Below are positions 11,653-18,053 of a stretch of 18,073 nt of DNA, piece by piece. Position 1 is the first letter of the stretch; the number at the start of each line of letters is the position of its first letter. The DNA is taken from the IMG/VR virus record IMGVR_UViG_2690316325_000011, positions 1 through 18,073 of that record; one strand, given 5' to 3'. Under the pieces are notes generated by a model. That model made no database searches. It was not told where the DNA came from and worked only from the letters and a program-made list of their open reading frames with translations. The position numbers and the translations under genes were made by a program. The DNA is from a virus (taxonomy: Duplodnaviria; Heunggongvirae; Uroviricota; Caudoviricetes).

Positions 11653-12264
11653 TTAATTTCCTGCTTTCAGTTGCTTAAGACGGCGTTTGAGTTCGCCATT
11701 TCGGGCCTTTTCGTTATTGAGTCGGCCTGTCTCCTTATCCAGCTTCGCCCGCAAATCAGTGATCTGCTGTTGATTGAAAGACACCGAGTTCTGCGCTGAT
11801 TTATAAGCGGCAACCACCTGAGCATTCCGCTGTTTTGCCTCTTGCAGGCGCTGAAAGTTGGATTTTACTGCCGGTTTCTTGTCTACCGGATTGGCAACAC
11901 GTTTCGCTTTGGCGATCAGTGATTTCTGGAATTTTGCGGAGTTTTTGCGGGCCGCTTGCCCCATGACGGTACCAAGCGTCTTGATATCCGGCGATTGAGC
12001 GTTAGGAATAGCTTTTCCATTCAGCCTCACAGACGATATATCGCCAGTATCGTTTACCTGTATGGCAAGAATTTGTCCGTCGTTAAGAACCAGCTTTGCG
12101 GTTTTAACTTTAACGCCATCTTTCGTTGTTGCGCGGTTGCTGGAGTCAACCTCAATTACCGTAACACCGGTTTTATTGATCGCCGCGATAAGGGATTTCA
12201 GCCCCTTTTCATTAACCTGGTCAAAATCGACCGTTGCATACTTATTTTTCGTCATCTGACACAT
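11653..12264 (-). CDS. hdf: Hdf-like protein (homolog of a DarA fragment)
   Basis: 203 aa with motif DGQILAIQV...GQAARKNSAKFQKSLIAKAK, shared with the DarA-like protein (KNSAKFQ core). Its stop abuts the DarA-like start (TAACATGG). Confidence 0.55.
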   Translation of the reverse strand: MCQMTKNKYATVDFDQVNEKGLKSLIAAINKTGVTVIEVDSSNRATTKDGVKVKTAKLVLNDGQILAIQVNDTGDISSVRLNGKAIPNAQSPDIKTLGTVMGQAARKNSAKFQKSLIAKAKRVANPVDKKPAVKSNFQRLQEAKQRNAQVVAAYKSAQNSVSFNQQQITDLRAKLDKETGRLNNEKARNGELKRRLKQLKAGN

Positions 12265-12685
12265 CCTGTGCGAGATTTATTACGTAACTTCTGCGGATTT
12301 GCTGAGTAACAGGGAAAATCCGATACAACGGGTTAATGAACGAGTCGCCATGCGTAACCATGACGTTGAAATGCCACAGTCGCTCTCCTTTACCCATATA
12401 TTCAGTGGGTATGTACAACCATTCACTGTTTTCGCCCTGTTCAGCCGACGTCAAACAACGTTGTTCGCCTTCAATCACTGTCGTCGGCTTCTGAACATCG
12501 CGGATCCAATATCTGACCGTTGCGCCGCGCAAAAACGGGAATTTAGACCGGTATTTGAACGGCACCCGGATGAAACCCGGTTTAATTTCCACATCACCAA
12601 GTTCTAAATGCGTGATGTCCTTGCGTTTTAGCAAATAGCGATCGGCTAAGGCTAACGCAAGAACGCATACACCCCAGCCAATCAT
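12242..12685 (-). CDS. lydB: LydB-like putative antiholin / lysis regulator
   Basis: 147 aa with one N-terminal hydrophobic segment (MIGWGVCVLALALA). Start overlaps the holin-like gene stop (ATGA). Position matches lydA-lydB order in P1. Confidence 0.45.
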   Translation of the reverse strand: MIGWGVCVLALALADRYLLKRKDITHLELGDVEIKPGFIRVPFKYRSKFPFLRGATVRYWIRDVQKPTTVIEGEQRCLTSAEQGENSEWLYIPTEYMGKGERLWHFNVMVTHGDSFINPLYRIFPVTQQIRRSYVINLAQDVSDDEK

Positions 12686-13011
12686 TTCCCGCCTCCCTTT
12701 TTCACCAAACTTGTAAGAACATTCAGAATGCTATCGATATTCACTCGTTTCATCCCTGAAATCACCTCATGACCGTTATTGCTGGCTATCGTTACCATTA
12801 AGTACGTAATTGATAACTCCCAGCCCTCGTGTTGCCCCAATAGGTACGCCACCGCGCCAGCTGTCACTGCAACAAAGATCTCCGTAACCAATCCCAACAA
12901 ATTGCCAGACTGGCGACCGTCTCGGACATCCATCAGGAACGTGCCTATCCCACCAATTACTGAAAGCAGGAGCGCAATAGCAACTGGAGCTAATTCCTGT
13001 GTGTCAAGCAC
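12682..13011 (-). CDS. lydA: LydA-like holin
   Basis: 109 aa; GTG start with AGGAGGG SD. Two to three predicted transmembrane segments (LAPVAIALLLSVIGGIGTFLM, IFVAVTAGAVAYLLG) and charged C-terminus (KKGGGK). Confidence 0.5.
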   Translation of the reverse strand: MLDTQELAPVAIALLLSVIGGIGTFLMDVRDGRQSGNLLGLVTEIFVAVTAGAVAYLLGQHEGWELSITYLMVTIASNNGHEVISGMKRVNIDSILNVLTSLVKKGGGK

Positions 13012-13085
13012 AAGTTCCCTCCTACGTTGTCAGGAGGTAATGGTATGCAAAGTAACTTCTCAACCGGTTATGTTGCATAAGAGAC

Positions 13086-13349
13086 TTACCTATTCAACCG
13101 ACTTTTGGAACCTTCAATAATAAGCCTGCTATTGGCGCTGAAAATAAGAACCATGCAGCTCTGAAGGCTTTCATTCATATCCTTATATTCCGCGAGATAC
13201 ATGCCAATAAAGCCAGCAAGTACGGCGGAAATACATTCGGCCAGCAATTTCTTGCATGAAGACTCGTAACGGTTTTCACATAGCCCACTCAAATACGAAT
13301 ACACCCCACCAAGAAGGGATAACATCACGATATGTACATAAAATGTCAT
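13086..13349 (-). CDS. Small two-segment membrane protein (holin-like), first gene of the minus-strand operon
   Basis: 87 aa; ATG at 13349 with AGGT SD. Hydrophobic segments HIVMLSLLGGVYSYL and AVLAGFIGMYL. Confidence 0.45.
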   Translation of the reverse strand: MTFYVHIVMLSLLGGVYSYLSGLCENRYESSCKKLLAECISAVLAGFIGMYLAEYKDMNESLQSCMVLIFSANSRLIIEGSKSRLNR

Positions 13350-13476
13350 TTTTTACCTATACAACAGTAAGTTGAACAACATCTGAGAACGGTATGCACT
13401 TTGTGATTTCCACACACACTGGTTTTGTTAATTAAAACCTGTAGCTTGCAATAAATAACGATAGTGGGCAGAAAAT

Positions 13477-13662
13477 ATGCTAATAGGCTATGTACGCATA
13501 TAGACAAATGAACAAAACACAGCTATGCAGTGAAAAGCACTTGAAAGCGCAGGATGTGAGCTAATTTTTGCGAATAAGGCGAGCAGCAAAAAGGCTGGGC
13601 ACCTTGGGTTAAAAAAGGTTCTGCGTATGCTTTCCAGAGGTGATACCCTAGTCTCGGGCTAG
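13477..13662 (+). pseudogene. Decayed 5' fragment of a Cin-like DNA invertase gene, convergent with the intact invertase
   Basis: Reads MLIGYVRI*TNEQNTAMQ*KALESAGCELIFANKASSKKAGHLGLKKVLRMLSRGDTLV with in-frame stops at 13501 and about 13531, then loses frame after about 13656. It matches the Gin/Cin N-terminus and differs from the neighbouring intact invertase (NEQNTA versus NDQNTD). Right boundary approximate. Confidence 0.6.
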
Positions 13663-13784
13663 GGACAACATTTCGAGGACAGTTTTCATTAGCGGTCAGC
13701 AGGCGCTAGATACATCGAATTGATGTGCCGCGCGATAAATGTACCTATTCTATCAAGATAAATTACACCGACGCGGCATTAGAA

Positions 13785-14357
13785 TTACAGCTCAGATTGA
13801 GTTTGGCGCTTCTCTACAGGATGATAACGATAAATCGTCGATACACCGATATCGTAAATAATTGCCAACTGTTTCCTGCTGTAGCCATTTTCGATCAACC
13901 TCGCTATTTGCTCATGTTGTTCTTTTGTCAACTTCGGGCGACGTCCGCCAATGCGTCCCTGTTCGCGTGCAGCTGCCAGTCCGGCCAGTGTTCTCTCAAC
14001 AATTAATTCACGTTCCATTTCTGCTAAAGCCCCCATGACGTGAAAAAAGAAACGCCCCATGGGTGTTGATGTGTCAATACTGTCTGTCAGACTACGGAAA
14101 TTAACACCTTTTTCCCGCAACTCCTCTATAAGCGTGATAAGGTGTTTCATACTTCTGCCAAGCCTATCCAGCTTCCAGACAACCAGCGTATCTCCTTCTG
14201 ATAACGTTCTGAGCAGCTTTTTCAAGCCTGGTCTGGCTGACTTTGTTCCGCTTATTTTATCTTCAAAAATCAGTTCACATCCTGCGCAGTTCAGTGCATT
14301 TCTTTGTAAATCTGTGTTTTGGTCATTTGTTGACACACGAATGTAGCCAATTTGCAT
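13785..14357 (-). CDS. Site-specific DNA invertase (Hin/Gin/Cin/Pin/Min family serine recombinase)
   Basis: 190 aa from ATG at 14357 (AAGAGG about 9 nt upstream; the track's 14366 start is a TTG). Catalytic N-terminus MQIGYIRVSTNDQNTDLQRNAL, core motifs GDTLVVWKLDRLGRS and SPMGRFFFHVMGALAEMERELIVERT, C-terminal HTH (GVSTIYRY). Adjacent to crossover sites. Confidence 0.93.
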   Translation of the reverse strand: MQIGYIRVSTNDQNTDLQRNALNCAGCELIFEDKISGTKSARPGLKKLLRTLSEGDTLVVWKLDRLGRSMKHLITLIEELREKGVNFRSLTDSIDTSTPMGRFFFHVMGALAEMERELIVERTLAGLAAAREQGRIGGRRPKLTKEQHEQIARLIENGYSRKQLAIIYDIGVSTIYRYHPVEKRQTQSEL

Positions 14358-14411
14358 GAAAAACAACCTCTTTGTTTAGTTAAAAATACATCGTTGGTAT
14401 AGGTAGGGATT

Positions 14412-14437
14412 AAGACTAAAACGTTGGTTTGGGGGAA
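14412..14437 (+). other. Crossover site 1 (26-bp Gin/Cin-type inversion site), in the invertase promoter region
   Basis: AAGACTAAAACG-TT-GGTTTGGGGGAA. The right half and TT core are conserved with the other sites; the left half is divergent. Lies 55 to 80 bp upstream of the invertase ATG. Confidence 0.7.
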
Positions 14438-14890
14438 GGCTCTGCACTGCCTGTTGGTGTGCCCGTTCCGTGGCCCTTAGAAACACCGCCAACGGGGTGG
14501 CTGAAATGTAACGGAGCAGCATTTTCTTCTGAAAAGTACCCAAATCTGGCAAAGGCTTACCCTACTAATAAATTGCCTGATTTACGCGGTGAATTTATTC
14601 GTGGCTGGGATGACGGACGTGGTGTGGATGCCGGGCGACAATTATTATCTTCACAGGGGGATGCAATAAGAAATATTGAGGGATTCGCAGATGGCGGGAT
14701 CGGTATGTCTTTTGATGCAATCAGAGGGGCTTTTTACGATGCAGGAACACGATCAGCGAGAATGCCGAATAACACAACTACTATAGACAAAACCGATGAC
14801 CTTGGATTCGACGCCTCTCGTGTCGTGCCAACAGCTAATGAAAACCGTCCTCGTAATATTGCCTTTAATTATATCGTAAGGGCGGCATAA
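14426..14890 (+). CDS. Promoterless tail-fibre C-terminal (receptor-binding tip) cassette A
   Basis: Coding frame begins at the first base right of the site-1 core, with no ATG or SD (track start is TTG). Conserved 5' module GEGSALPVGVPVPWP..TPPTGWLKCNGAAFSSEKYPNLAK.YPT.KLPDLRGEFIRGWDDGRG (tail-collar-like), variable middle, conserved end RPRNIAFNYIVRAA, stop TAA inside the left half of site 2. Confidence 0.8.
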   Translation, partial: GLGEGSALPVGVPVPWPLETPPTGWLKCNGAAFSSEKYPNLAKAYPTNKLPDLRGEFIRGWDDGRGVDAGRQLLSSQGDAIRNIEGFADGGIGMSFDAIRGAFYDAGTRSARMPNNTTTIDKTDDLGFDASRVVPTANENRPRNIAFNYIVRAA

Positions 14891-14909
14891 AAACGTTGGT
14901 TTGGGGGAA
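14884..14909 (+). other. Crossover site 2
   Basis: GGCATAAAAACG-TT-GGTTTGGGGGAA. The left half contains the cassette A stop codon. Confidence 0.75.
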
Positions 14910-15466
14910 GGCTCATCAGCTCAGTAGTGCCACTAACAGCACGTCTGAAGTGCTGGCCGCCACACCGAAAGCTGTCAAGGCTGCATATGACCTGGCTAAC
15001 GGGAAGTATACAGCCCAGGATGCAACCACGACACAAAAAGGGATAGTTCAGCTCAGTAGCGACACCAACAGCACTTCTGAAACATTAGCTGCAACGCCAA
15101 AAGCGGTTAAAGCTGCATACGATCTAGCAGCCGGAAAGGCACCATCCAGTCATACACATCCCTGGAATCAGATCACTGGTGTGCCAACAGCTTCATTGAC
15201 AGCGAAAGGCATCACTCAGCTCAGTAGTGCCACTAACAGCACGTCTGAAGTGCTGGCCGCTACACCGAAAGCTGTCAAGGCTGCATATGATTTGGCTAAT
15301 GGAAAGCAAGCGGCAGACGCTACGCTCACTGCTCTAGCGGCACTAGCTACCGCAGCAGATAAACTCCCTTATTTCACAGGGGTTGATCGTGCCGCGTTAA
15401 CTGCACTGACAAGTGTTGGACGTGCAATTCTTAGTAAGCCCAGTATTCAGAGCGTTCTTAATTACC
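14898..15466 (+). other. Captured fragment of a tail-fibre constant region carrying three tail-fibre repeat units
   Basis: Open frame encoding three copies of QLSS(A/D)TNSTSE(V/T)LAATPKAVKAAYDLA; nucleotide copies at 14917..14990 and 15217..15290 are identical except for one base. It ends ...LNYL at site 3. From site 2 in the cassette frame the reading is GLGEGSSAQ then stop (TAG 14925..14927), so it is not a functional cassette. Confidence 0.6.
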
Positions 15467-15480
15467 TTGGTTTAGGGGAA
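15455..15480 (+). other. Crossover site 3 (constant/variable junction type; most symmetric site)
   Basis: TTCTTAATTACC-TT-GGTTTAGGGGAA. Left half resembles Gin/Cin-family half-sites (TTC.T..A..ACC) and is coding (LNYL) with no stop, unlike sites 2, 4, 5 and 6. Confidence 0.7.
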
Positions 15481-15975
15481 GGCTCGGCGCTGCCCGTTGG
15501 TGTACCTGTTCCATGGCCCTCAGCCACACCACCAACGGGGTGGCTGAAATGTAACGGAGCAGCATTTTCTTCTGAAAAGTACCCAAATCTGGCAAAGGTT
15601 TACCCAACGTTAAAATTACCTGATTTACGCGGTGAGTTTATCCGTGGTTGGGATGATTCGAGAGGGATTGATACAGGGCGTTCATTGCTAAGTGGTCAGA
15701 CTGCAACATTTATTCGTACAGCTTTGCAGGATTATTACGGTGTCGATCTGACTACTAATGTCAAAGTAGGTATCGCTTATGCTACTGCTGATTCTGTTAT
15801 AACTGTTGGAAACCCTGCTAATCCTAAAGCAGGAGATAATAGCGATTATGTTCCAGCATCATCAGATAACTCCATAACAGGCACTCAAAGGACGGCAGAG
15901 GATAATTTTACCGGGGCATGGATATCAATGCGCCCCCGCAACGTTGCTTTTAATTACATCGTAAGGGCAGCATGA
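15469..15975 (+). CDS. Promoterless tail-fibre C-terminal cassette C (3' part of track ORF 14896..15975)
   Basis: Same conserved 5' module and RPRNVAFNYIVRAA end as the other cassettes; distinct variable middle; stop TGA inside the left half of site 4. Confidence 0.8.
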   Translation, partial: GLGEGSALPVGVPVPWPSATPPTGWLKCNGAAFSSEKYPNLAKVYPTLKLPDLRGEFIRGWDDSRGIDTGRSLLSGQTATFIRTALQDYYGVDLTTNVKVGIAYATADSVITVGNPANPKAGDNSDYVPASSDNSITGTQRTAEDNFTGAWISMRPRNVAFNYIVRAA

Positions 15976-15994
15976 AAACGTTGGTTTGGGGGAA
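15969..15994 (+). other. Crossover site 4
   Basis: AGCATGAAAACG-TT-GGTTTGGGGGAA. Confidence 0.75.
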
Positions 15995-16453
15995 GGCTCA
16001 GCATTGCCCGTTGGCGTGCCCGTTCCGTGGCCATCAGCCACACCTCCAACGGGGTGGCTGAAATGCAATGGTGCAGCATTTTCTTCTGAAAAGTACCCAA
16101 ATCTGGCAAAGGTTTACCCCACTAATAAATTGCCGGATCTACGGGGCGAATTTATTCGCGGCTGGGATGACGGGCGGGGGATTGACTCTGGCCGTAATTT
16201 ATTATCTGCACAGAATGATGCAATTCAGAATATTGTTGGTTCTTTCGGGCGTACTCAGCTTTTTAGAGATGTACTTAGTTCAGGGCCATTTAGTCAACAT
16301 GGTCAAGTATTATCTACAGGCCTAAAGGAAACGGAAATTATTGAGGGTTATGGCTCTTATAACTGGACATTCGACGCCTCTCGCTCAGTTCGTACAGCAT
16401 CTGAAACCCGCCCCCGTAATATTGCGTTTAATTATATCGTAAGGGCGGCATAA
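15983..16453 (+). CDS. Promoterless tail-fibre C-terminal cassette D
   Basis: Conserved 5' module, distinct variable middle, conserved RPRNIAFNYIVRAA end, stop TAA inside site 5. Confidence 0.8.
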   Translation, partial: GLGEGSALPVGVPVPWPSATPPTGWLKCNGAAFSSEKYPNLAKVYPTNKLPDLRGEFIRGWDDGRGIDSGRNLLSAQNDAIQNIVGSFGRTQLFRDVLSSGPFSQHGQVLSTGLKETEIIEGYGSYNWTFDASRSVRTASETRPRNIAFNYIVRAA

Positions 16454-16472
16454 AAACGTTGGTTTGGGAGAA
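16447..16472 (+). other. Crossover site 5
   Basis: GGCATAAAAACG-TT-GGTTTGGGAGAA. Confidence 0.75.
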
Positions 16473-16961
16473 GGCTCTGCATTACCTGTTGGTGTCCCTG
16501 TTCCGTGGCCTTCAGCCACTCCGCCAACAGGCTGGCTGAAATGCAACGGTGCAGCATTTTCTTCTGAAAAGTACCCAAATCTGGCAAAGGTTTACCCCAC
16601 TAATAAATTGCCGGATCTACGGGGCGAATTTATTCGCGGCTGGGATGACGGGCGGGGGATTGATCCAGGTCGCTCTATTTTAAGCGAGCAAGGATATGCA
16701 ACGGAGGATCATGCTCACGGATTACCGTCAAAATCAACCGTAGCAACTGACAGCTCAATTAATTTCTACTTTGACGAGGCATGGGCTACTAGTGGTAATA
16801 CGGGAGTTATCAGATGGGGGAACACAAGCGATGCAGGATTGCCAGCCCCTAATTATGGAACTTTTAAAACATATAAACAGTCCGTAGCTAATTTAGGTAC
16901 TGCTGGCTTAGAAACCCGCCCTCGTAATATTGCATTTAATTATATTGTGAGGGCGGATTAA
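16461..16961 (+). CDS. Promoterless tail-fibre C-terminal cassette E
   Basis: Conserved 5' module (near-identical to cassette D over roughly 120 bp), distinct variable middle containing EDHAHG, end RPRNIAFNYIVRAD. Stop lies 5 bp from the convergent tail-fibre assembly gene stop. Confidence 0.8.
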   Translation, partial: GLGEGSALPVGVPVPWPSATPPTGWLKCNGAAFSSEKYPNLAKVYPTNKLPDLRGEFIRGWDDGRGIDPGRSILSEQGYATEDHAHGLPSKSTVATDSSINFYFDEAWATSGNTGVIRWGNTSDAGLPAPNYGTFKTYKQSVANLGTAGLETRPRNIAFNYIVRAD

Positions 16962-16966
16962 TTATA

Positions 16967-17578
16967 TCAACTGGCTGTAGAAAGTTGTTTTTCAGGCCAG
17001 TTGAGATCTGGTGCCGTGGTTAAATCCATCGCGTTCAGCTCGTCTATATAATCTAGCACGGAGTTAAGCTGCGTGGTTTCTGCCTGCGTCAACTTCCGTC
17101 CAGCCCGTAATTTCAACTGAATCAGACTAATGGAATCCATCGCAGTATCAATCAATGACTGACGTTTTGTTTCTGCTGCCTCTACAGCTGCACTATGTTG
17201 AGCCTCAGTATCAACCACCCATTTCTCTCCATCCCATTTGTCGTATGGTGTTAGCGGGGCGATAGTGGTTGTATTTTCCGGATAGTCACCCAACACCGTG
17301 ATTTCTTCGGGATTCCCTGTGTCAATGCTATAGACAGTTTCGCCACGATGATCTGGCACATACTCCCATGAACTTAAATCCTCTGAACGGAGAATCGCAT
17401 AACCTGCTTTATGTGAGCCTGGAGCATCCAAACAAGAATGTGCCGGAATACCAACGCCAACAGCAAGATATTCAGTTGATGCAGAAATATATTCCCGATT
17501 ACCACCATCATAGTTATAAACGATAATGTTTCCTGCCTGTATGGCTATAAGTTCGCTATTTAATATCGCATTATCCAT
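16967..17578 (-). CDS. Tail-fibre assembly protein (Tfa/U-like chaperone)
   Basis: 203 aa; ATG overlaps the cassette F stop (TAATG), so it is translationally coupled. C-terminal region ...LDYIDELNAMDLTTAPDLNWPEKQ is typical of caudoviral tail-fibre assembly proteins as I recall. It is the only such gene in the window. Confidence 0.8.
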   Translation of the reverse strand: MDNAILNSELIAIQAGNIIVYNYDGGNREYISASTEYLAVGVGIPAHSCLDAPGSHKAGYAILRSEDLSSWEYVPDHRGETVYSIDTGNPEEITVLGDYPENTTTIAPLTPYDKWDGEKWVVDTEAQHSAAVEAAETKRQSLIDTAMDSISLIQLKLRAGRKLTQAETTQLNSVLDYIDELNAMDLTTAPDLNWPEKQLSTAS

Positions 17579-18039
17579 TATGCTGCTCTCACAATATAAT
17601 TGAAGGCAATGTTACGTGGGCGGGTTTCATTCCCCCCAGATAACTCCGTTCTGTATTGACTGGTAAATTTACCATTAATCGCTCCTTCTTGGACGGCGTT
17701 ATCTGTCGACAACAGGCTATCCCCCCCTCTGTCATTTGGCACCAATACCGTGTTATCCCACGCGTCCCATGACCGAATATTATGATAATGACTTCCTGTT
17801 AACCACCCCTGTATGCTTAAGATGACCCTTCCCGCATCCACACCTCGCCCATCATCCCAACCACGGATAAACTCACCGCGTAAATCAGGTAATTTTAACG
17901 TTGGGTAAACCTTTGCCAGATTTGGGTACTTTTCAGAAGAAAATGCTGCGCCATTGCATTTCAGCCACCCCGTTGGCGGTGTTTCTAAGGGCCACGGAAC
18001 GGGCACGCCAACGGGCAGTGCAGAGCCTTCCCCCAAACC
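17578..18039 (-). CDS. Tail-fibre C-terminal cassette F (minus-strand array, followed by the assembly gene)
   Basis: Begins at the core of the inverted site 6; conserved 5' module, distinct variable middle, conserved RPRNIAFNYIVRAA end. Its 5' module is a patchwork of A-like and C-like sequence. Confidence 0.8.
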   Translation of the reverse strand, partial: GLGEGSALPVGVPVPWPLETPPTGWLKCNGAAFSSEKYPNLAKVYPTLKLPDLRGEFIRGWDDGRGVDAGRVILSIQGWLTGSHYHNIRSWDAWDNTVLVPNDRGGDSLLSTDNAVQEGAINGKFTSQYRTELSGGNETRPRNIAFNYIVRAA

Positions 18040-18053
18040 AACGTTTTTATGCC
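18028..18053 (-). other. Crossover site 6, inverted relative to sites 1-5
   Basis: Reverse complement reads GGCATAAAAACG-TT-GGTTTGGGGGAA. Its left half contains the stop codon of a further minus-strand cassette. Confidence 0.75.

What the first reader, a model, noticed from the sequence alone, without database searches (positions are those of the whole stretch)
13477..13720. Decayed cin-like invertase fragment convergent with the intact invertase
A recognisable Gin/Cin-type N-terminus (MLIGYVRI*TNEQNTAMQ*KALESAGCELIF...GLKKVLRMLSRGDTLV) with stops and frame loss lies about 120 bp from the 3' end of the intact invertase, on the opposite strand. It is more Cin-like than the resident enzyme, which suggests recombinase replacement or an ancient inversion through the invertase gene. 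Din-family enhancers lie in the 5' coding region of the invertase gene, so the relic could still carry Fis sites.
Basis: partly seen in the sequence, partly recalled or inferred. Interest (0 to 1): 0.6.

Follow-up and report, generated by a model that had tools for sequence, protein, structure and literature searches.

The report
Dead cin stub beside Min invertase
This is the dead, truncated front end of the phage P1 cin invertase gene, left behind when a P1-type plasmid-prophage swapped its tail-fibre switching module for the Min type; the same segment was already mapped in plasmid p15B, so it is real but ordinary.

Summary
Window 13477..13653 (+) is the first 59 codons of P1 cin (tblastn E=1e-26, 81% aa). 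It has TAG at the catalytic-serine codon 9 and TGA at codon 19. Nucleotide homology to P1 (89.5%) runs 13388..13653, and the whole P1 backbone match (94..13653, 97%) stops at that base. The gene then ends abruptly, without a frameshift, 131 bp from the stop codon of the convergent intact invertase (14357..13785). That invertase is a Min/Pin-type enzyme with Min-type crossover sites. The window is collinear with the sequenced p15B inversion region: the P1 GenBank record already maps this same P1 segment onto p15B. From memory, Sandmeier et al. 1991 named it psi-cin. Both stops are present in 21 of 21 independent IMG/VR copies, and the region occurs in 160 of 5,426 complete E. coli genomes. Changes specific to the relic are 12 non-synonymous to 4 synonymous, the neutral ratio. 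No 3' cin piece exists anywhere in a complete plasmid of this type, so module replacement is supported and inversion through cin is not. The relic enhancer keeps its second Fis core but has three hits at invariant positions of the first. Verdict: already known, low interest.

The parts
13388..13476 (+). Relic of the cin upstream region, covering the P1 'P1cin' predicted promoter area and the ribosome-binding site. The predicted -10 TAAAAT of P1 is TAAAAC here, and the spacer is 1 nt shorter.
   Evidence: Alignment with P1, P1 annotation. No sigma-70-like site found in 13300..14500.
13477..13653 (+). psi-cin: codons 1-59 of a P1-type cin gene. TAG replaces the catalytic Ser codon 9 (13501..13503) and TGA replaces Arg codon 19 (13531..13533).
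   Evidence: tblastn E=1.3e-26. Pfam Resolvase 32.3 bits. Relic-specific changes are 12 non-synonymous to 4 synonymous.
13495..13566 (+). Stretch homologous to the annotated P1 cin recombinational enhancer (cin nt 19-90). It carries 10 substitutions relative to the consensus of intact alleles.
   Evidence: P1 annotation of the enhancer at 31678..31749, column comparison.
13498..13512 (+). Position of the first 15-bp Fis core (cin nt 22-36). It reads ATATAGACAAATGAA against GTATCAACAAATGAA in P1, with three changes including the terminal G.
   Evidence: Core placement is inferred by homology with the hin enhancer (own knowledge, partly PMC3798978).
13547..13561 (+). Position of the second Fis core (cin nt 71-85), GCGCAGGATGTGAGC, identical to P1, P7 and D6.
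13654..13665 (.). 12 nt at the junction (TCGGGCTAGGGA) whose origin could not be assigned.
   Evidence: Alignments.
13666..13722 (-). Relic of the last ~20 codons of a tail-fibre variable cassette (..TANENCPRNV), cut short at the junction. It belongs to the incoming Min module.
   Evidence: Inverted repeat I8 with 14826..14861, translation, alignment.
13723..13784 (-). 3' flank of min, with a weak terminator-like hairpin at 13779..13765. It is shared at ~74% with the 3' flank of Pin-type invertases in chromosomal prophages.
13785..14357 (-). Intact resident invertase (190 aa, Min/Pin type). Its own enhancer-homologous stretch lies at 14339..14268.
   Evidence: Pfam Resolvase plus HTH_7. Exact match to the cluster named for UniProt Q05517_ECOLX 'DNA-invertase'. 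Enhancer cores GTGTCAACAAATGAC and GCGCAGGATGTGAAC.
14423..14448 (+). First Min crossover site, AAGACTAAAACG TT GGTTTGGGGGAA. This is the boundary of the invertible tail-fibre region and lies 65 bp upstream of the min ATG.
   Evidence: Its reverse complement is 26/26 identical to p15B mixMI''L' in Table 3 of PMC3241671.

Best explanation
The fragment is a non-functional pseudogene stub, the psi-cin of p15B-type P1-family plasmid-prophages. An ancestral P1-like genome carried cin followed by the Cin-invertible C segment. That tail-fibre switching module was replaced by a Min/Pin-type multiple-inversion module. The left junction of the substitution fell inside cin, so only the promoter region and the first 59 codons stayed attached to the conserved lydC-lydA-dar backbone.

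In Min/Pin-type modules the invertase gene sits with its 5' end against the invertible DNA and reads outwards. P1 cin instead reads into the invertible DNA. The new min gene therefore points back at the cin stub, which gives the convergent arrangement without any inversion through the gene.

The stub has since drifted neutrally. It has lost its catalytic serine codon to a stop, gained a second stop, and lost one of the two Fis cores of its internal enhancer.

Shown: homology, boundaries, stops, distribution, neutral substitution pattern, and absence of the 3' half.
Inferred: the order of events, the illegitimate (microhomology) nature of the junction, and the lack of residual function.
For: Homology and boundaries:
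- Cin residues 1-59 at 13477..13653, E=1e-26, with two stops.
- The P1 backbone match covers 94..13653 at 97% and ends exactly at the stub's end. Gene order ddrB-ddrA-darA-hdf-lydB-lydA-lydC to the left is as in P1.

Collinearity with p15B:
- The P1 GenBank record states that P1 31570..31832 is 89% identical with 1 gap to p15B X62121 nt 7147..7408. That is the same P1 segment, identity and gap count as the window match, P1 31570..31836.
- The spacing to the p15B lydA and min-enhancer segments fits the window to the base.
- The crossover site next to min is 26/26 identical to the published p15B mix site.
- The invertase is an exact member of the UniProt Q05517_ECOLX cluster.

Pseudogene status:
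- 21 of 21 IMG/VR loci of this type carry both stops and have Min at a fixed distance.
- 160 of 5,426 E. coli genomes carry the region.
- Of the 16 relic-specific nucleotide changes, 12 are non-synonymous and 4 synonymous. The site ratio is 136:41, so omega is about 0.9, against pN/pS of 0.03-0.13 between intact alleles.

Replacement rather than inversion:
- No 3' cin fragment in the window or in the complete plasmid pEC2_5.
- Independent analogous stubs exist in SJ46 (74-aa ORF plus a different Pin-type invertase), in a D6-like plasmid (stub to codon ~102 with frameshift), and next to a non-invertible tail fibre. Junctions inside cin are therefore a recurrent outcome of tail-fibre module exchange.
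Against: - I could not align the window directly with X62121 or read the 1991-92 p15B papers. The name psi-cin and the published substitution model rest on my memory plus the cross-references in the P1 record.
- The 31-nt block cin nt 64-94, which includes the second Fis core, is unchanged in the stub. About 2.8 changes are expected at the stub's overall rate, so P is about 0.06. This is a weak hint of residual constraint and is not significant.
- The p15B-type copies are all very similar to each other (4 variable sites in 177 nt), so they cannot show ongoing decay.
- Absence of function is inferred, not measured.
Confidence: 0.9

Rival explanations
1. An ancient site-specific or other inversion ran through cin, splitting it so that the 5' part stayed in place and the 3' part was carried elsewhere.
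For: The stub is convergent with another invertase. In the D6-like plasmid, the junction lies exactly where a mix site would normally follow a tail-fibre cassette stop codon.
Against: No 3' cin fragment exists in the window or anywhere in the complete 98-kb plasmid pEC2_5 (tblastn and blastn). No mix/cix-like site lies at or near the junction (regex scan). The junction in the D6-like plasmid lacks the left half-site and looks like a microhomology join (GCGnnCAT). The convergent orientation is explained by module polarity alone.
Confidence: 0.03
2. The stub persists because its internal recombinational enhancer still binds Fis and acts in cis as a second enhancer for Min-mediated inversion.
For: The enhancer-homologous stretch is present with unchanged length. 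The second Fis core (13547..13561) and the surrounding 31 nt are unchanged. Din enhancers act at a distance and in either orientation (established knowledge; PMC3798978).
Against: The first Fis core has three substitutions, all at positions invariant in 22 intact alleles, including the terminal G. 10 of the 20 changes from the intact-allele consensus in the 177-nt stub fall in the 72-bp enhancer, so there is no sign of protection. Both Fis sites are needed for enhancer activity (established knowledge of Hin and Gin). In the D6-like stub a 2-nt deletion alters the spacing between the cores. min carries its own complete enhancer.
Confidence: 0.04
3. The retained cin promoter drives a transcript that runs into the 3' end of min and regulates it by antisense pairing or transcriptional interference.
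For: The 89 bp upstream of the ATG are retained at about 90% identity to P1. The two genes are convergent and 131 bp apart.
Against: The -10 hexamer of the predicted P1cin promoter is TAAAAC here, having lost its last T, and the spacer is shortened. The P2cin region is not conserved. The consensus scan finds no promoter-like site on either strand in 13300..14500. No Rfam family matches.
Confidence: 0.02
4. The stops are sequencing errors and the locus encodes a second full-length invertase.
For: None beyond the good conservation of the first 59 codons.
Against: Both stops are present in 21 of 21 independent IMG/VR loci and in many complete genomes. Homology to any invertase ends at codon 59, and the next 131 bp are a tail-fibre relic and the min 3' flank.
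Confidence: 0.005

Closest known systems
psi-cin of plasmid p15B (E. coli 15T-), next to min. Sandmeier et al. 1991, Nucleic Acids Res 19:5831 (GenBank X62121). The substitution model is in Sandmeier, Iida and Arber 1992, J Bacteriol 174:3936. Paper content is cited from memory; the existence of the 1991 reference is confirmed.
   Same: Same P1 segment (P1 31570 to about 31832), same 89% identity with one gap, and same position between lydC/lydA and a convergent min. The spacing to the min enhancer and to lydA is identical. The adjoining mix site is identical.
   Different: Nothing detectable. Direct alignment with X62121 was not possible with the collections at hand. The set of tail-fibre cassettes to the right varies between plasmids of this type.
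cin of bacteriophage P1 (and P7, D6), with its internal recombinational enhancer
   Same: Homologous promoter region and codons 1-59. The enhancer lies at cin nt 19-90, with the same length and spacing.
   Different: Truncated after codon 59. The catalytic Ser9 codon is a stop, and there is a second stop at codon 19. No HTH domain and no adjoining cix site. The first Fis core is mutated. The substitution pattern is neutral.
cin 5' fragments in other P1-family elements: Salmonella phage SJ46 (74-aa ORF annotated 'DNA invertase'), D6-like plasmid pEc-050-T0_3 (PGAP pseudogene), pSvP1 and pTZ20_1P (PMC6906374)
   Same: A 5' stub of cin attached to the lysis/dar backbone. In SJ46 and pEc-050 it is convergent with an intact Pin/Min-type invertase.
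   Different: The break points differ: codon ~69-74 in SJ46, ~102 in pEc-050, and ~44-51 in the class next to a non-invertible tail fibre. The lesions differ too: SJ46 is still open, and pEc-050 has a 2-nt deletion. SJ46 has a different resident invertase (60% to Cin).

Membership tests
Functional Din-family DNA invertase gene (Cin/Gin/Hin/Pin/Min) | Uninterrupted ORF of about 185-195 codons with Resolvase and HTH_7 domains | tested here: not met
   Only codons 1-59 are present, with stops at codons 9 and 19. Pfam matches profile positions 2-68 of 145 only, and there is no HTH.
Functional Din-family DNA invertase gene (Cin/Gin/Hin/Pin/Min) | Catalytic serine near residue 9-10 | tested here: not met
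   The codon is TAG at 13501..13503, where intact alleles have TCA.
Functional Din-family DNA invertase gene (Cin/Gin/Hin/Pin/Min) | Purifying selection on the coding sequence | tested here: not met
   Relic-specific changes are 12 non-synonymous to 4 synonymous (omega about 0.9), against pN/pS of 0.03-0.13 among intact alleles.
Fis-dependent recombinational enhancer of Din systems | Located in the 5' coding region of the invertase gene, homologous to the mapped cin enhancer | tested here: met
   13495..13566 aligns without gaps to the annotated P1 enhancer at 31678..31749.
Fis-dependent recombinational enhancer of Din systems | Two Fis cores at fixed spacing, both intact | tested here: inconclusive
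   Spacing is kept and the second core is identical. The first core has 3 changes at positions invariant in intact alleles, including the terminal G.
Fis-dependent recombinational enhancer of Din systems | Stimulates inversion in cis | not testable with these tools
   Needs an inversion assay.
psi-cin of p15B-type plasmids | Same segment of P1 (promoter plus about 59 codons) at about 89% identity | tested here: met
   Window to P1 31570..31836 is 89.5% with 1 gap. The P1 record gives p15B 7147..7408 to P1 31570..31832 as 89% with 1 gap.
psi-cin of p15B-type plasmids | Lies between lydC/lydA and a convergent min gene that adjoins Min crossover sites | tested here: met
   Gene order. The mix site is 26/26 identical to the published p15B site. 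The spacing matches X62121 coordinates quoted in the P1 record.
psi-cin of p15B-type plasmids | Base-by-base identity with GenBank X62121 | not testable with these tools
   X62121 is not in the searchable collections, and the papers are not held.

The most novel reading that the evidence does not exclude
The half-decayed enhancer in the stub (intact second Fis core, unchanged 31-nt block at 13539..13569) may still bind Fis and modulate Min-mediated multiple inversions, for example by biasing which of the mix sites are paired. If so, the stub would be a retained cis-regulatory element rather than pure debris.
Probability: 0.04. Interest if true: 0.35.

Novelty: already known. Interest (0 to 1): 0.1.

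Why it matters
It matters little for new biology. The stub is a textbook molecular fossil of modular tail-fibre and host-range exchange among P1-family plasmid-prophages, and it marks the left edge of the substituted module to the base.

Its practical value is for annotation. The stub is unannotated in some RefSeq records, called a pseudogene in others, and called 'DNA invertase' or 'Hin' in phage records. It should not be counted as a second recombinase.

The comparison made here shows at least three or four different break points inside cin in different lineages. Cin is therefore a recurrent junction for module swaps, which is a modest extension of the published picture.

Tried and rejected
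- Literature retrieval. I tried to read the p15B and P1 genome papers (PubMed 1945872, PMC329034, PMC523184), but they are not held. A full-text search for 'psi cin' found nothing. The published name therefore rests on memory plus the P1 GenBank cross-references.
- Search for the 3' half of cin. I looked in the window and in a complete plasmid of the same type and found none, so the inversion model was rejected.
- Search for a mix/cix-like site at the junction. None was found.
- Origin of 13654..13665. I tried to derive these 12 nt from cin codons 60-70 or from a deletion of the longer D6-type stub. The similarities were too weak to claim.
- Polymorphism test for neutrality among p15B-type copies. 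It was uninformative because the copies are nearly identical and min variation is dominated by mosaic recombination. I used lineage-specific substitutions against intact alleles instead.
- Crude Fis-site scoring by consensus rules. It was not discriminating on its own and was replaced by a comparison with positions invariant among intact alleles. The invariance of nt 64-86 in that set follows from the search pattern and was not used as evidence.
- Rfam scan and promoter scan of 13300..14500. Nothing was found.

Full report
**Observation.** tblastn of P1 Cin (taken from the P1 record) against the window gives two significant hits. One is the resident invertase at 14357..13800 (-), 74% identical over 186 residues, E=1e-94. 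The other is residues 1-59 at 13477..13653 (+), 81% identical, E=1.3e-26. Nothing else scores below E=6. With the stops masked, the 59 residues pass Pfam's Resolvase cut-off. At the nucleotide level the match to P1 is 89.5% with one gap over 13388..13653, so it includes 89 bp upstream of the ATG. The Cin-derived part therefore ends at 13653, not 13720. There is no frameshift within it. It lies 131 bp from the stop codon of the resident gene at 13785.

**What the window is.** The window matches phage P1 from 94 to 13653 at 97%, and the match ends at the last base of the stub. The genes to the left are ddrB, ddrA, darA, hdf, lydB, lydA and lydC, in P1 order and with P1 lengths. To the right of the stub lies a 190-aa Resolvase+HTH_7 invertase. 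Its exact sequence belongs to the cluster named for UniProt Q05517_ECOLX 'DNA-invertase'. Beyond it lies a tail-fibre region with at least five crossover sites of the form AAAACG TT GGTTTGGGGGAA, at 14423, 14895, 15980 and 16458 on + and about 18046 on -. The site next to the invertase is 26/26 identical to the p15B site mixMI''L' tabulated in PMC3241671.

**Link to p15B.** The P1 GenBank record states that P1 31570..31832 is 89% identical with one gap to p15B X62121 nt 7147..7408. That is the same P1 segment, identity and gap count as the window's match (P1 31570..31836). The record also places the cin enhancer at 83% to p15B 6463..6533, and P1 30674..31240, which contains lydA, at p15B 7728..8294. 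Converting those p15B coordinates to window coordinates puts the min enhancer 24 nt into min and the end of the lydA segment 57 nt beyond the lydA start, exactly as observed. The window is therefore collinear with the sequenced p15B Min region. From memory, Sandmeier et al. (1991, NAR 19:5831; the reference is confirmed to exist) described 'a truncated 5' region of a DNA invertase gene termed psi-cin' next to min. Also from memory, Sandmeier, Iida and Arber (1992, J Bacteriol 174:3936) interpreted Min as a substitution of a Cin-like system. I could not retrieve either paper.

**It is a real pseudogene, not an error.** The 441-bp region occurs at 95% identity or more in 160 of 5,426 complete E. 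coli genomes, almost always on plasmids of about 95-100 kb. It also occurs in Salmonella and Klebsiella plasmids. I scanned IMG/VR with a 23-mer from cin, which returned 84 loci (83 scored copies):
- 47 have an intact cin.
- 21 have this stub. All 21 carry TAG at codon 9 and TGA at codon 19, and all have the Min-type invertase at the same distance on the opposite strand.

Comparing codons 1-59 with P1, P7, D6 and the SJ46 fragment, 16 nucleotide positions are changed only in the stub. Twelve are non-synonymous, including the three that make the stops, and four are synonymous. The ratio of non-synonymous to synonymous sites is 136:41, so this is the neutral expectation. Intact alleles differ from one another with pN/pS of 0.03-0.13.

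**Replacement, not inversion.** If an inversion had split cin, the 3' part should sit elsewhere. It is absent from the window. It is also absent from the whole of pEc2_5, a complete 98,151-bp plasmid whose relic region is 100% identical. No crossover-site-like sequence lies near the junction. The convergent arrangement needs no special event. In P1, cin reads into the C segment and cixL overlaps its stop codon. Here min reads away from the invertible DNA, with the first mix site 65 bp upstream of its ATG. A Min-type module placed in the orientation required by the constant part of the tail-fibre gene must therefore point min at what is left of cin.

**The junction.** After 13653 come 12 nt that I could not assign. 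Next comes 13666..13722, which on the - strand encodes ..TANENCPRNV. This is the end of a tail-fibre variable cassette (compare ..TANENRPRNIAFNYIVRAA* at 14429..14890), cut about ten codons short. Then come 62 nt of min 3' flank that are also found, at about 74%, behind Pin-type invertases of chromosomal prophages.

**Related stubs in other lineages.**
- *D6-like plasmid pEc-050-T0_3.* It has the same Min module at 96% identity from the point equivalent to 13666 onwards, on a backbone too diverged for the lydA/lydC region to give any blastn match. Its own stub is D6-like and runs to cin codon ~102, with a 2-nt deletion, a 9-nt deletion and stops. The tail-fibre relic there is complete to its last codon, and the two are joined at a short microhomology.
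- *Salmonella phage SJ46.* It has a still-open 74-codon cin fragment convergent with a different invertase.
- *Eight IMG/VR loci.* They have stubs cut near codon 44-51. In the one inspected (L051), the stub lies next to a 1,463-aa tail fibre with no invertase.

Junctions inside cin are therefore a recurrent by-product of tail-fibre module exchange. I could not resolve whether the p15B-type and D6-type junctions are one event plus a deletion or two separate events. They share one derived change, G22A.

**The enhancer question.** P1's annotated enhancer is cin nt 19-90, which corresponds to 13495..13566. By homology with hin (own knowledge; PMC3798978 confirms two 15-bp Fis cores separated by a spacer with A/T-rich segments), the cores fall at nt 22-36 and nt 71-85. 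The resident min has GTGTCAACAAATGAC and GCGCAGGATGTGAAC at those positions.

In the stub the second core is identical to P1. The first core reads ATATAGACAAATGAA against GTATCAACAAATGAA. Its three changes all fall at positions invariant in 22 distinct intact alleles, and they include the terminal G. Ten of the stub's 20 changes from the intact-allele consensus over the 177 nt lie in the 72-bp enhancer, so it has not been protected. The unchanged 31-nt block at nt 64-94 is not significant, with P about 0.06. Its invariance in the IMG/VR set is partly forced by my search pattern.

The predicted P1cin -10 hexamer TAAAAT is TAAAAC here. No promoter-like site and no Rfam family is found. I conclude that the relic most likely has no function. 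Residual enhancer activity is the only non-trivial possibility, and I rate it at about 4%.

**Verdict.** The 'replacement' reading is right and the 'inversion' reading is not supported. The feature is the already described cin pseudogene of p15B-type P1 relatives. Novelty: already known. Interest: low.

Noticed in passing
window 13666..13722 (-): A relic of the C-terminal ~20 codons of a tail-fibre variable cassette lies just beyond the 3' flank of min, in the same orientation as min. In the D6-like plasmid L003 it is complete to its last codon and abuts cin codon ~102. Its presence at the outer edge of the Min module is unexplained.
   Followed up: partly
window 14423..18073: A Min-type multiple-inversion region. 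It has five crossover sites (14423, 14895, 15980, 16458 on +, about 18046 on -) and at least five alternative tail-fibre C-terminal cassettes, all ending in ..RPRNIAFNYIVRAA*. The cassette content differs from pEC2_5, so the array is variable between otherwise near-identical plasmids.
   Followed up: partly
L051 3084..8200, also L015, L021, L038, L055, L071, L082, L084: A further class of P1-like contigs keeps only about 44-51 codons of cin. In the one inspected (L051) the stub is followed by a tail-fibre assembly gene and a 1,463-aa tail fibre with no invertase, which looks like a non-switching replacement of the C segment.
   Followed up: partly
window 4045..6040 (+): Two overlapping ORFs (302 and 364 aa) have no Pfam, PADLOC or NCBIfam match. 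They sit between ssb and the ddrB side, in a stretch (3966..6074) that finds no counterpart in pEC2_5, which carries an anti-phage dGTPase next to ssb. They are possibly an uncharacterised accessory or defence cargo.
   Followed up: partly
window 14916..15306: Three copies of a 91-nt repeat (75-95% identical) lie inside the 359-aa tail-fibre cassette. The same unit is amplified many-fold in the S gene of pEC2_5, recalling the repeated elements annotated in P1 S.
   Followed up: no
L002 2773..3981 (pEC2_5) against window 9357..9370: pEC2_5 and several relatives carry an IS200/IS605-type TnpB (InsQ) gene inserted between ddrB and ddrA. The window lacks this insertion.
   Followed up: no
L019 (IMG/VR contig of 5,293 bp): The cin 23-mer occurs at both ends of this short contig in inverted orientation (13-35 + and 5259-5281 -). 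This may be an assembly artefact of an invertible region or a duplicated invertase end.
   Followed up: no
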